UHGV virus genome: UHGV-0363615
Direction: 5' to 3' (one strand)
DNA: 23,822 nucleotides
From: a virus
Shown here piece after piece: positions 21,001 to 23,822 of this stretch (position 1 is the stretch's first letter; each line of letters begins with the position of its first letter). Made by a program: the position numbers.

Positions 21001-23822
21001 TTATTTGAGCGATTCCGACAGTCCCTGCCGCCGTCATATATCCATCGGCGGATTTCAGCACATGCACCTTTCCGGTCTCCGGCGTTCAGTTTCCGGTAAA
21101 ACGTTGAGGTGAAGCATTTCGAAGGCCCGATGTTGTACGGACAGAATGACGCGATGCCCGCTTTCTGCGGTTCAGTCAGTGGCACTCTGATGTTTTTCTC
21201 CACCCATGCCAGCGCCTTATCACGCTCAATGGCGTTAACCTGGTCGCATTTTTCCTTCGACAACTTCATGCCCGGGACGACAGGTTTGCCATCCACCATG
21301 ATGGCACCACGGCAGATGGTCCAGATCCCCGCACCATCACGGTATGCCGTGGTGTGGTTACCTTCTTTTTCGTCAAGAAACTGGTCGATGATTTCAGGCG
21401 CAGAAGCACCTGCCGCAATCAGCGCCAGAACGGCTACCGATAAACCATAGTGGAGTTTCTGAGTCACCTAATCACTCTCCCCGGGCAGCCTTGCGACGGT
21501 CCTCTTTAATTTTGAAATACAGATTCGTCAGGTATGTCAGGAACCCCAGACACAGGCTCCCCAAAACCCCGATAGCAGCCCACTGTGACGGAGTAACCTG
21601 ATCCAACCACTGTAGAAACCAGTAACCCGCACTGCCCGCAGAAGTACCATAGGCTATGCCCGTTGATATTTTTTCCATCTGATACATATCCCCGCCCCGA
21701 CAGACCTGTGCTACCGGAAATAAAAAAGGCCATCAGTGTTTTACTGATGGCCCTGCCCCGCCGTTACAGCATTGTGCCCGGTTCGGGTTGTGTGTCTGTC
21801 ATATCCGTCACCGGTGACTCCGGCTGAATATCACCATTTTCCGTGGTGACATCTTCCGCCTGTGGTTCCGGAAGCAGTTCCGGGGATGGTTCCGCCTGTG
21901 CACCAAGCAATTCATCCAGAATTGAATCCACTTCTGCATCAAGACGCTCTTCCAGATTCTGGCGGAGTTTTTGTTTCAGGACGCTTCTGACTTCTTCAGA
22001 GCGAATGACTTCCTTCACTGCCTCAGCAGTGACCAGTTGTTTTATATCTGTCATGAGATTTTCTCGTTGAAAGGGGTTATTAAGAAGGTTGTTCCGGAAT
22101 GAGTGGGGCTTCTGTTTTTGCTCCGGCTGACTGAGTGGCGCTGATTTTCTCAGCGGCCCTTTTGTCAATCTGTCTGCGCCAGAAGTCGCGTACTGCCCTG
22201 TATCCACCTGAAAGAAGATACAACACACAGACCACCGTACAGAAGTACAGCATTAACTGGTTGATGAATGTCATGGTTTATTACCGTTACTGTTGACAAT
22301 GAGAACTGTTTTCATTTAGAAATGATTGATGTCGAAAGCATCCTTTCGTTAGATTCTCCATTGGGATTACCTCCGCCAGTCTCCATTCCTGTTGCTGGCG
22401 GTTTTTTTTCGTCTGTTATGCTGCTACGGCATTCACACCAACAGTAAGACTTTCAATCAGCACAGGGTAAGTTGCCGCATTTCCGGTAATATCCGTAATT
22501 GCCAGCGCGTTGGCCTCAAAGGCTGCATTCGTCCATCTGGTCAGCGTAAACGGTTTTCCTGCTGCATTATCAAGCACCGGCGTGACGTTCAGCGAGCCAC
22601 CACCCGGGAAGCGGAAAGTCAGCGTGTGCCAGTCGTGATCGAACGGACCATAACTACCAAGCCGCTGTGATGTGGTGTTTGCATGATACATCACATTGAT
22701 GTTTGTTTTATCAGTCTGCAGATAGAAGGCCGCAATATAACCCTCCTCTGATTCCGCTCCCGGCCATCCACTACCGCGCCAGTAAATACCCGCAGAATAT
22801 TGATTTGCAGAAGCATTGAGAGATACATCATCGGGGATTTTAAAGCGCAGCGTGATTTCACCGCCGTTATCGAACAGCTCCTTCCCCTTACCGGCATCAA
22901 TTGCGTGCGATACTTTCCAGGTCTTTTTCTGTGCAAGACCATTTTCTGGTTTTTCAAGACGAAGGGCTTTTTTACCTGAACCACTGTCACTGACCAGCGT
23001 GTTTTTGACATCTGTCAGCGTCCAGCCCTGCGAAGCCAGAGCGGCATTTTCCGCATTCACATCATAAGCCAGCACTGACTGTATCTTTGTCGGGACAACG
23101 GCTTCAGGCTGAGTATCGCCACTCTCCTGTGCTGGTTGCGATACGCCTCCGCCTGAAGAAACCGCGGCTTTTGTCACTTTCCCGGAAACAAAATCTGCCA
23201 CTCTGCCCACATGCAGAAGAATGGCTGTTGCCAGACGGTCGGAAATAATTCCGCGACGCGCCCATGAACCAAAGTGGGTTTTACGATCGGATGTTGTCCA
23301 GCTCTTCGCATCCGTTCGTCCACCGGAACCATAATACCCGATAGCCGGAATATCCGGGTCTTCTGACGGTTCATTGGTCCCGACTTTCTGACCATTGTCA
23401 TCCATCATAAACGGCACAAAGAAGATATTTTTACCGGCTTTGGTTTTGTATGCGCCATAAACGGCATCGTATTGCGCTGAATACGTCTCCTTCCAGTAGT
23501 ACGTCGTGTCACCACAAATCCAGGGCACCAGAGAAGGAGAAGCACCAGCGCACTGACCGGATACTCCCGCCAGGTCAGAACGGTATTTTTCCACCATGGC
23601 ATCAAACATGGCGGGCTGACTGGCGTACGCTCCCTGTTTTAAATCAAACTCGCCCTGCATCCAGACAACACAAAGCAGTATGTTTTTGGGGTTTGCCTTC
23701 AGCGCGGCCTGAGTGCGTGTCAGCAGGTCTTTATACAACGGCTTATCAACGCCCCATCGTTCAGATTTATCCGACGCTCCTGAACTTTCACTGAACGTTC
23801 CGTCAGCACCGGCTGTAAACGC

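What the first reader, a model, noticed from the sequence alone, without database searches (positions are those of the whole stretch)
22298..22409. Candidate small RNA between the esterase gene and the lysis cassette
The plus strand carries a TTGACA hexamer (22298), a weak -10-like element about 17 nt downstream, an internal hairpin (cgaaag/ctttcg near 22340) and a strong terminator (22373..22409), with no plus-strand ORF. It would be antisense to the minus-strand intergenic transcript upstream of the lysis genes.
Basis: inference. Interest (0 to 1): 0.45.

Follow-up and report, generated by a model that had tools for sequence, protein, structure and literature searches.

The report
Esr41-like prophage small RNA gene
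The flagged stretch is very probably a small regulatory RNA gene, a prophage-borne relative of the known E. coli sRNA Esr41, sitting backwards between the sialic-acid esterase gene and the lysis genes of a lambda-like prophage; its kind is known, but this widespread copy is unannotated and its expression is untested.

Summary
The described features exist, with small coordinate corrections. They are a perfect TTGACA (22293-22298), TAGAAA 18 nt downstream (22317-22322), hairpin CGAAAG/CTTTCG (22333-22348), and an 8-bp GC-rich stem with U8 (22373-22409). A strong terminator with TTGACA within 140 nt upstream occurs once in the window and in 0 of 200 random sequences.

The element is homologous, from -35 box to terminator, to Esr41, a validated Hfq-dependent sRNA of EHEC island SpLE1. 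The local alignment has z=18. A covariance model built only from prophage copies finds Esr41 (28.7 bits, E~4e-4), and Rfam's Esr41 model gives weak full-length hits in return. Esr41's validated seed UUCUCCAUGGG is kept as UUCUCCAU-U-GGG, and UUCUCCAU is invariant in 124 promoter-anchored copies.

The element fills the same antisense slot as the validated sRNAs PasA/PasC but is not detectably homologous to them. BLAST finds 2019 copies in 951 of 5426 complete E. coli genomes; none of the 40 rows shown overlapped an annotated feature. Synteny was fixed in 130 loci.

Most likely it is a trans-acting, RBS-targeting sRNA of about 82 nt. Expression is not shown, and the O157 copies are absent from two published sRNA lists. 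I rate it a new member of a known kind, of moderate interest.

The parts
22293..22298 (+). -35 hexamer TTGACA (perfect consensus)
   Evidence: Sequence. Present in all 52 distinct family variants retrieved through the seed pattern alone. Aligns with the TTGACA of the Esr41 promoter.
22317..22322 (+). -10 candidate TAGAAA, 18-nt spacer (TAAAAA in other subtypes)
   Evidence: Sequence. TA[A/G]AAA is kept at 17-18 nt from the -35 in all variants. It aligns with TATATA of Esr41 and has the same architecture as TTGACA-18-CAGAAA upstream of the mapped PasA 5' end. Not called by the consensus scan because position 6 is A.
22328..22409 (+). Predicted sRNA, about 82 nt (G22328 to the end of the U tract)
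   Evidence: The +1 position is inferred by alignment. Esr41 starts at GAUGC, 5 nt after its -10; the window has GAUGU at the same distance. The covariance model R1 and Rfam's Esr41 model both delimit 22328/22333-22409. Transcription is not shown.
22333..22348 (+). 5' hairpin CGAAAG-CAUC-CUUUCG
   Evidence: RNAfold MFE and centroid. Esr41 has a hairpin of different sequence at the same place. Only 75% of cells pair across 18 variants and there are no double-sided changes, so conservation is weak.
22352..22366 (+). Seed 1: GAUUCUCCAUUGGGA (core UUCUCCAU 22354-22361)
   Evidence: UUCUCCAU is unchanged in 124 of 124 promoter-anchored copies. It corresponds to Esr41 UUCUCCAUGGG, whose GGG>CUC mutation and chuA/cirA compensatory mutations validated pairing. 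Predicted duplex with the chuA SD region is -23.2 kcal/mol, against -24.3 for Esr41; 0 of 500 shuffles do as well.
22369..22377 (+). Seed 2 / anti-SD-like ACCUCCGCC, overlapping the 5' arm of the terminator
   Evidence: Corresponds to Esr41 CCCUCCGCC, the site of the Esr41-M2 mutation used for bfr. There is one substitution here, and some copies (L137, L138) have the Esr41 form. The predicted bfr duplex is no better than shuffles.
22373..22409 (+). Rho-independent terminator and likely Hfq-binding module: 8-bp stem, 13-nt loop, U8
   Evidence: Seven stem pairs are invariant. The eighth is C-G in most copies, U.G in the window, and U-A in v18/v31/v51. The U.G would be an A.C mismatch on the other strand. 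The T run of 6-9 bases (5 after an interrupting C in one variant) follows the stem in every variant.
22080..22274 (-). Flanking gene: DUF1378 family protein, 64 aa, start codon 19 nt from the -35 box, divergent
   Evidence: Upstream neighbour in 129 of the 130 loci analysed.
22416..23822 (-). Flanking gene: SASA-family sialate esterase, 3' part (runs off the window); stop codon 22416-22418, 6 nt after the U tract
   Evidence: Downstream, convergent neighbour in 123 of the 130 loci; the other 7 lack sequence on that side.
22287..22361 (-). Minus-strand mini-ORF (24 codons) with GGAGG 7 nt before its AUG; the exact complement of the two seeds
   Evidence: Read from the sequence. Its length is not conserved: 4 codons in the O157 type, 15-16 in the O104 type, 4 at the Esr41 locus (sequences). 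It is therefore not a protein gene. It may matter for cis pairing.

Best explanation
The element is a small-RNA gene of the Esr41 family, carried as an antisense 'moron' in the late region of a lambdoid prophage.

Inferred steps: a sigma-70 promoter (TTGACA, 18 nt, TAGAAA) starts transcription near G22328, and the intrinsic terminator at 22373-22409 ends it, giving an RNA of about 82 nt whose 3' stem plus U8 tail would bind Hfq.

Shown by comparison: the RNA carries the same single-stranded seed as Esr41, UUCUCCAU(U)GGG, followed by an anti-Shine-Dalgarno-like ACCUCC.

Inferred from Esr41 biology: in a lysogen the RNA acts in trans. It pairs with ribosome-binding sites that read ...CCCAUGGAGAA... 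and blocks translation. The haem receptor chuA is the best-predicted target where that gene exists.

The RNA is also perfectly complementary to the esterase-DUF1378 intergenic part of the late transcript. After induction it would therefore pair with that mRNA. This would be a secondary consequence, and its effect is unknown.
For: 1. Homology to a validated sRNA over the whole gene, promoter included.
- Local alignment of window 22285-22412 against the Esr41 locus scores 56, against a null of 15.6 +/- 2.2 (maximum 29; z=18). It runs from TTGACA to the U tract, and there is no flank homology.
- Model R1, built only from prophage copies, finds Esr41 at 28.7 bits, E~4e-4, full length.
- Rfam's Esr41 model gives full-length hits of 19.1 bits (window) and 28.1-28.5 bits (O157 copies).

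2. Both Esr41 pairing sites defined by compensatory mutations are present (Table EV8 of PMC5286369).
- The UUCUCCAU core is invariant in 124 of 124 promoter-anchored copies.
- Predicted pairing with the chuA SD region equals that of Esr41: -23.2 against -24.3 kcal/mol, with 0 of 500 shuffles as good.

3. The conservation profile fits an sRNA gene.
- Promoter: 87-100% identity between subtypes.
- Adjacent spacer: 72%.
- First 10 nt after the -10: 0-20% in three of the four comparisons.
- Beyond the terminator: 33-57%.

4. The terminator is on the plus strand only. The T run is always present, and the one variable stem pair runs C-G / U.G / U-A.

5. The slot, orientation and promoter architecture match those of PasA/PasC and EcOnc51/52, which are Hfq-dependent and northern-validated.

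6. Fixed synteny in 130 loci, and 2019 copies in 951 of 5426 E. coli genomes.
Against: - No expression data exist for this element.
- The O157 Sakai Sp5 copy (NC_002695.2, about 1272086-1272171, minus strand) has no Hfq peak in the EcOnc list. The z1466/z1467 and z3341/z3342 intergenic regions of EDL933 have no candidate among 96 RNA-seq sRNAs.
- The -10 is weak because it lacks T at position 6, and the consensus scan does not call the promoter.
- Folding of the plus strand is unremarkable (z=-1.9). The minus strand folds better (z=-4.4).
- There is essentially no covariation: the stems are nearly invariant and the 5' hairpin is not conserved.
- The score is far below Rfam's gathering threshold for Esr41 (19 against 102 bits).
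- The 1-nt insertion in seed 1 and the substitution in seed 2 may change targets. Predicted bfr pairing is not significant, and the O157 subtype loses predicted chuA pairing.
Confidence: 0.66

Rival explanations
1. The main role is in cis. The RNA is an antisense regulator of the phage late transcript. It pairs with the esterase-DUF1378 intergenic RNA, covers the SD-AUG found there and creates an RNase III substrate. This would tune expression of DUF1378, DUF826, holin and lysozyme, and hence lysis timing.
For: - Perfect 82-nt complementarity follows from the antisense arrangement.
- That arrangement is fixed in 130 loci and shared with PasA/PasC.
- The complement of the seeds is a strong GGAGG-N7-AUG on the late mRNA.
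- The minus-strand RNA is strongly structured there, z=-4.4.
Against: - Esr41, the homologue with the same seeds, is not antisense to any gene in SpLE1 and works in trans on chuA, cirA and bfr.
- PasA and PasC have many trans partners in RIL-seq.
- The mini-ORF behind the SD-AUG is not conserved in length.
- The RNA does not overlap the DUF1378 ribosome-binding site (22275-22292).
Confidence: 0.15
2. The element is not an expressed sRNA gene. It is either a decayed copy of an Esr41-like gene or merely a plus-strand terminator that shields the esterase gene from antisense read-through.
For: - Weak -10.
- No Hfq peak or RNA-seq candidate at the O157 copies.
- No covariation.
Against: - The promoter is the most conserved segment, at 87-100%, with an invariant perfect -35 and preserved 17-18 nt spacing across indels.
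- The seed is invariant in 124 copies.
- A decaying relic would not keep promoter, seed and terminator intact across three diverged subtypes and 2019 copies.
- The published sRNA lists are not exhaustive, and multi-copy repeats are hard to map.
Confidence: 0.1
3. The conserved sequence serves the minus strand. It would be an mRNA stem-loop plus a strong ribosome-binding site and leader mini-ORF in the late operon, for example for mRNA stability or translational coupling into DUF1378.
For: - The minus-strand fold has z=-4.4.
- GGAGG-N7-AUG is conserved.
- In the window's subtype the mini-ORF stops 12 nt before the DUF1378 start.
Against: - Mini-ORF length varies from 4 to 24 codons, and in the O157 type it stops far from DUF1378.
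- The same SD-AUG complement is kept at the Esr41 locus, where no minus-strand operon exists.
- The T run, the U.G pairs (A.C on the minus strand) and the conserved TTGACA have no minus-strand rationale.
Confidence: 0.06
4. It is a PasA/PasC sRNA (the EcOnc51/52 family).
For: - Same slot and orientation between esterase and holin.
- Similar terminator core GCTGGC-T7.
- Same promoter architecture.
Against: - Model R1 scores the PasA/PasC loci at only 10-13 bits, E>1.
- The PasA/PasC loci do not hit Rfam's Esr41 model.
- Flank alignment is no better than chance, z=0.5.
- Only the terminator matches, z=1.6-5.4.
Confidence: 0.03

Closest known systems
Esr41 (EcOnc14; Rfam RF02676), Hfq-dependent sRNA of EHEC O157 island SpLE1/OI-43
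   Same: - Homologous from the -35 box to the U tract.
- Same promoter layout, TTGACA-18-TAnAnA, and GAUG at +1.
- A 5' hairpin at the same place.
- Seed UUCUCCAU...GGG and CCUCCGCC.
- GC-rich terminator with a long U tail.
- Predicted chuA pairing of equal strength.
   Different: - Only about two thirds of aligned positions are identical.
- The 5' hairpin has a different sequence.
- One extra U in seed 1, and A for C in seed 2.
- The terminator loop is 13 nt, against about 5 in the Esr41 fold.
- Far below Rfam's gathering score (19 against 102 bits).
- It sits in a lambdoid prophage late operon, antisense, rather than in SpLE1 co-oriented with its neighbours.
- It is multi-copy and widespread, and its expression and Hfq binding are untested.
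PasA / PasC (EPEC E2348/69) and EcOnc51 / EcOnc52 (EHEC Sakai)
   Same: - Same genomic slot between the sialate esterase and the holin-lysozyme genes.
- Same antisense orientation ('> < >').
- Similar size (79-85 nt).
- Perfect TTGACA with an 18-nt spacer and a yAGAAA -10.
- Terminator abutting the esterase stop codon.
   Different: - No significant sequence or covariance-model similarity beyond the terminator core.
- The PasA seed (GCCAGCACC, overlapping the terminator) is different.
- PasA/PasC loci lack the DUF1378 and DUF826 genes, whereas the window type always has them.
HnrS (EcOnc10-12), multicopy prophage sRNA repressing hha
   Same: A multicopy, prophage late-region, Hfq-associated sRNA that blocks a ribosome-binding site. 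Copy number is set by the number of prophages.
   Different: It has a different position (downstream of Rz) and a different sequence. The window has no HnrS gene.
Phage lambda OOP RNA (cis-antisense sRNA; established knowledge)
   Same: A short phage RNA with its own promoter and intrinsic terminator, transcribed against a phage mRNA.
   Different: OOP overlaps a coding 3' end (cII) and acts through RNase III in cis. Here the overlap is intergenic, and the nearest homologue acts in trans. This is analogy only; there is no homology.

Membership tests
Esr41 (Rfam RF02676) | Score at or above Rfam's gathering threshold (102 bits) | tested here: not met
   Window scores 19.1 bits, E 0.54. O157 copies score 28.1-28.5 bits, and true Esr41 scores 108.6 bits. 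The whole-window scan at gathering threshold found nothing.
Esr41 (Rfam RF02676) | Sequence homology across the whole gene | tested here: met
   Local alignment from -35 to the U tract, score 56 against a null of 15.6 +/- 2.2, z=18, 0 of 2000 shuffles as good. Reciprocal covariance model R1 scores Esr41 at 28.7 bits, E~4e-4, full length.
Esr41 (Rfam RF02676) | Seed 1, UUCUCCAUGGG, validated on chuA and cirA by the GGG>CUC compensatory mutations | tested here: met
   The window has UUCUCCAU-U-GGG, with one inserted U. The core is invariant in 124 copies. Predicted chuA duplex is -23.2 against -24.3 kcal/mol.
Esr41 (Rfam RF02676) | Seed 2, CCCUCC, validated on bfr | tested here: inconclusive
   The window has ACCUCC, one substitution. 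Some copies have CCCUCC. The predicted bfr duplex is -18.1 kcal/mol, no better than shuffles.
Esr41 (Rfam RF02676) | 3' GC-rich palindrome followed by a long poly(U) (Hfq module) | tested here: met
   8-bp stem plus U8.
Esr41 (Rfam RF02676) | Transcript of about 70 nt, Hfq-dependent | not testable with these tools
   The predicted length is 82 nt. No RNA data were available, and the O157 copies are absent from the EcOnc and Esr lists.
Esr41 (Rfam RF02676) | Location in SpLE1 / OI-43, near iha and the ter genes | tested here: not met
   The element lies in a lambdoid prophage late region between the esterase and DUF1378 genes. Esr41 lies in SpLE1.
PasA/PasC (EcOnc51/52) | Position between the sialate esterase and the holin-lysozyme genes, antisense to both | tested here: met
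PasA/PasC (EcOnc51/52) | Sequence or structure similarity to PasA or PasC | tested here: not met
   R1 scores those loci at 10-13 bits, E>1. Alignments match only at the terminator, and flank z=0.5.
Intrinsic (Rho-independent) terminator | GC-rich stem directly followed by a U run on the transcribed strand | tested here: met
   The feature is on the plus strand only; on the minus strand an A run precedes the stem.
Sigma-70 promoter | -35 and -10 hexamers with 16-18 nt spacing | tested here: inconclusive
   The -35 is perfect. The -10, TAGAAA, matches 4 of 6 positions and lacks T6, so the scan did not call it. Conservation and alignment to the Esr41 and PasA promoters support it.

The most novel reading that the evidence does not exclude
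Esr41 of SpLE1 may be a captured copy of a much more widespread sRNA from the late region of lambdoid prophages. If so, many E. coli, including O157, would carry one to seven extra seed-sharing paralogues that act redundantly with or modulate Esr41, for example on haem and iron uptake. On prophage induction the abundant late transcript, which contains the perfect complement of both seeds (an SD-AUG mimic), would sponge these sRNAs. That would couple induction to de-repression of their host targets.
Probability: 0.15. Interest if true: 0.6.

Novelty: new member of a known kind. Interest (0 to 1): 0.4.

Why it matters
- If the RNA is expressed, about one in six complete E. coli genomes carries unannotated Esr41-like genes with the same seed. 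Genomes that have any carry a median of 2 and up to 7 copies.
- This would bear on how esr41 deletion phenotypes in EHEC are read, because the paralogues could act redundantly.
- It would link a pathogenicity-island sRNA to a phage origin.
- It would show that the esterase-lysis junction of lambdoid prophages is a general docking slot that holds unrelated sRNA genes (PasA/PasC or Esr41-like).
- Genome annotation misses these copies, plausibly because the Rfam threshold for Esr41 is set very high.

Tried and rejected
- Rfam at gathering threshold on the whole window: nothing.
- PasA/PasC membership. A MAFFT alignment looked colinear, but the similarity is not significant outside the terminator. 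Rejected.
- HnrS (EcOnc10-12): different locus, and absent from the window.
- PasB, compared with the second plus-strand terminator at 4985-5010: no similarity.
- One-genome-per-species scan with the core pattern: only 5 chance hits in unrelated taxa, so there is no evidence for the element outside E. coli prophages.
- Covariation support for the structure. RNAalifold recovers only the terminator, and pair counting shows no double-sided changes in register. The single C-G / U.G / U-A series was read by eye.
- Published expression evidence for the O157 copies, in EcOnc Table S2, the StxS paper and the Esr001-096 list: none found.
- A target search among translation-initiation regions of the window with RNAduplex: uninformative. 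The seed complement ATGGAGAA at the start of the 60-aa gene at 20777 is within chance expectation.
- The plus-strand 59-aa ORF: not conserved.
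Full report
**Observation**

The region 22275-22415 is the gap between two minus-strand genes. One is a SASA-family sialate esterase (stop codon 22416-22418; the gene runs off the window). The other is a 64-aa DUF1378 gene (start at 22274). DUF826, class II holin (21472-21687), lysozyme (20934-21467) and Rz follow on the minus strand.

On the plus strand the gap carries:
- TTGACA at 22293-22298;
- TAGAAA 18 nt later (22317-22322);
- a hairpin CGAAAG-CATC-CTTTCG (22333-22348);
- a GC-rich 8-bp stem (22373-22380 with 22394-22401, 13-nt loop) followed by T8 (22402-22409).

The consensus scans missed both the promoter and the terminator, for technical reasons: the -10 lacks T at position 6, and the loop exceeds 8 nt. 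With my own criteria, such a terminator occurs twice on the plus strand and never on the minus strand of the window, against 0.035 per random sequence. Combined with an upstream TTGACA it occurs once here and in 0 of 200 random sequences.

A 59-aa plus-strand ORF formally spans the element, but it is cut to two codons in most relatives.

**What it is related to**

Rfam gives nothing at gathering threshold. In E-value mode, however, the Esr41 model (RF02676) aligns end to end with 22333-22409 at 19.1 bits. The O157 versions of the element score 28.1-28.5 bits, and the true Esr41 of Sakai SpLE1 scores 108.6 bits.

- A direct alignment of the window element with the Esr41 locus runs from the -35 hexamer to the U tract. 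It scores 56 against a shuffle null of 15.6 +/- 2.2, z=18. Similarity stops at both ends of the gene.
- A covariance model built only from 18 prophage variants (R1) finds Esr41 full length at 28.7 bits, E about 4e-4. It scores the PasA/PasC loci at only 10-13 bits.
- The promoters align: Esr41 has TTGACA-18-TATATA, then 5 nt, then GAUGC; the window has TTGACA-18-TAGAAA, then 5 nt, then GAUGU. The Esr41 5' end GAUGCUC is the one used in the published expression construct. From this I predict +1 at G22328 and an RNA of about 82 nt. This is an inference.

**Seeds**

Table EV8 of Waters et al. (PMC5286369) shows where Esr41 was mutated. GGG>CUC immediately after UUCUCCAU was used for chuA and cirA. 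CCCUCC>CCUCCC was used for bfr. The matching target mutations restored regulation.

- The window RNA has UUCUCCAU-U-GGG and ACCUCCGCC.
- In 124 copies retrieved through the promoter pattern alone, UUCUCCAU never varies, even in the most divergent copy. Two copies carry the exact Esr41 form CCCUCC.
- I inferred the wild-type chuA and bfr sites from the mutagenic primers. RNAduplex then gives -23.2 kcal/mol for the window RNA on chuA, against -24.3 for Esr41, with 0 of 500 shuffles as good. The O157 subtype (-13.6) and PasA (-14.5) are not significant. No prophage variant is significant on bfr.

**Comparative anatomy**

The core pattern retrieved more than 120 IMG/VR loci with 52 distinct variants in three subtypes. 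Every one of them has GTTGACAAT and TA[A/G]AAA at 17-18 nt.

Identity between subtypes, by segment:

| Segment | Identity between subtypes |
|---|---|
| Promoter | 87-100% |
| Spacer towards DUF1378 | 72% |
| First 10 nt after the -10 | 0-20% in three of four comparisons |
| 5' hairpin | 75-88% |
| Seed region | 69-96% |
| Terminator | 78-92% |
| Past the U tract | 33-57% |

- The megablast similarity to Stx phages also ends at window 22408-22409, the last bases of the U tract.
- Seven terminator pairs are invariant. The eighth is C-G, U.G (in the window) or U-A. A U.G pair would be an A.C mismatch on the minus strand.
RNAalifold keeps only the terminator.
- The plus strand folds unremarkably (z=-1.9), whereas the minus strand folds better (z=-4.4).

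**Context and distribution**

- In 130 loci the neighbours are always DUF1378, DUF826 and holin on one side and the esterase 3' end on the other, all on the opposite strand, wherever the contig reaches.
- BLAST finds 2019 places in 951 of 5426 complete E. coli genomes, with a median of 2 and a maximum of 7 per genome. None of the 40 rows listed overlapped an annotated feature.
- The window's own version is identical in the commensal strain SCU-104 and 99.3% identical in phage PhiR12_3 of ECOR13.
- A scan of one genome per species found only chance matches.

**The slot is a known sRNA slot**

PasA and PasC of EPEC E2348/69 are Hfq-dependent and northern-validated. They lie between the esterase and the holin genes in the '> < >' arrangement, and their EHEC homologues are EcOnc51 and EcOnc52. 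I located them:
- PasA at L001:2916-3000, minus strand;
- PasC at L002:2333-2410, minus strand;
- EcOnc51 in Sakai Sp12.

They confirm the position and a TTGACA-18-CAGAAA promoter ahead of the mapped PasA 5' end. They are not homologous to the window element beyond the terminator core, and their loci lack DUF1378 and DUF826.

Zhu, Shabalina and Storz (bioRxiv 2026) report that 'Esr41' covariance-model hits are frequent near PasD, which lies on the other side of the esterase gene. Those hits are most simply the element studied here. That is my inference; they did not characterise it.

**Mechanism**

Best-supported reading (confidence about 0.66): this is an Esr41-family, Hfq-type sRNA made from its own promoter in the lysogen. 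It pairs through UUCUCCAU(U)GGG, and perhaps ACCUCC, with ribosome-binding sites to repress translation, as shown for Esr41 on chuA, cirA and bfr.
- Shown here: homology, seed conservation, promoter and terminator conservation, and synteny.
- Inferred: transcription, Hfq binding and the targets.

Because the RNA is antisense to the late transcript, whose complement reads GGAGG-N7-AUG, it must also be able to pair in cis after induction. Whether that matters for lysis is open (rival, 0.15). The other rivals are a silent relic or mere terminator (0.10), a minus-strand RBS and leader element (0.06), and PasA/PasC membership (0.03, tested and not met).

**Evidence against expression**

- The Sakai Sp5 copy (L008:6087-6171, minus strand, next to an IS629-disrupted esterase gene) has no peak in the Hfq-CRAC EcOnc list.
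- The corresponding EDL933 intergenic regions have no entry among the 96 RNA-seq candidates.

These lists are not exhaustive, and repeats map poorly. Still, the point stands.

**Verdict**

The element is a new, widespread and unannotated member of a known kind: an Esr41-like prophage sRNA in the PasA/PasC slot. Interest is moderate.

Noticed in passing
window 4840-5010 (+): A second strong plus-strand intrinsic terminator (GGGGAGC-atgtt-GCTCCCC plus T7, 4985-5010) lies among minus-strand structural genes. It is preceded by TTGACT (4840-4845) and a 24-codon ORF with a GGGG SD-like motif (4872-4946, MMEFAKIAIGITATECCYDILDKT). This could be another antisense small gene or sRNA. It is not similar to PasB, and it is present in 351 of 5426 E. 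coli genomes.
   Followed up: partly
window 22287-22361 (-): The complement of the sRNA seeds forms a strong GGAGG-N7-AUG on the late transcript. It opens a mini-ORF of 24 codons that stops 12 nt before the DUF1378 start. The ORF length is 4-24 codons in relatives, so it is not a conserved protein. It could be a translated leader or the cis-pairing site.
   Followed up: partly
L001:2760-2880 (-) and L004:3065-3200 (+): In E2348/69 PP2 and Sakai Sp12 the PasA gene is followed in tandem by a second, PasC-like unit with its own TTGACA and terminator, ending at the esterase stop codon. Read-through to this second terminator would explain the published minor 236-nt PasA species.
   Followed up: partly
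window 22408-22409 / 22416: Megablast similarity to Stx-converting phages (about 84% identity) stops at window 22408-22409, the last bases of the sRNA terminator. The esterase 3' end beyond it is only 50-57% identical between subtypes. The sRNA is therefore linked to the DUF1378 and lysis side, and the terminator marks a mosaic boundary.
   Followed up: partly
window 20770-20777 (-): The 8-nt seed complement ATGGAGAA also sits exactly on the start codon of the 60-aa hypothetical gene between lysozyme and Rz (annotated in SCU-104). About one such match per window is expected by chance, and RNAduplex did not single it out.
   Followed up: partly
window 19673-19973; L140:1000-1150: Sakai Sp12 carries the HnrS (EcOnc10) gene between Rz and the terminase region. 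The window lacks it: homology to Sp12 starts only at 19786, and different sequence occupies the HnrS position.
   Followed up: yes
L008:4504-5813: In Sakai Sp5 (the Stx2 prophage) the esterase gene next to the Esr41-like element is interrupted by IS629, leaving a 90-aa remnant ORF beside the element.
   Followed up: no
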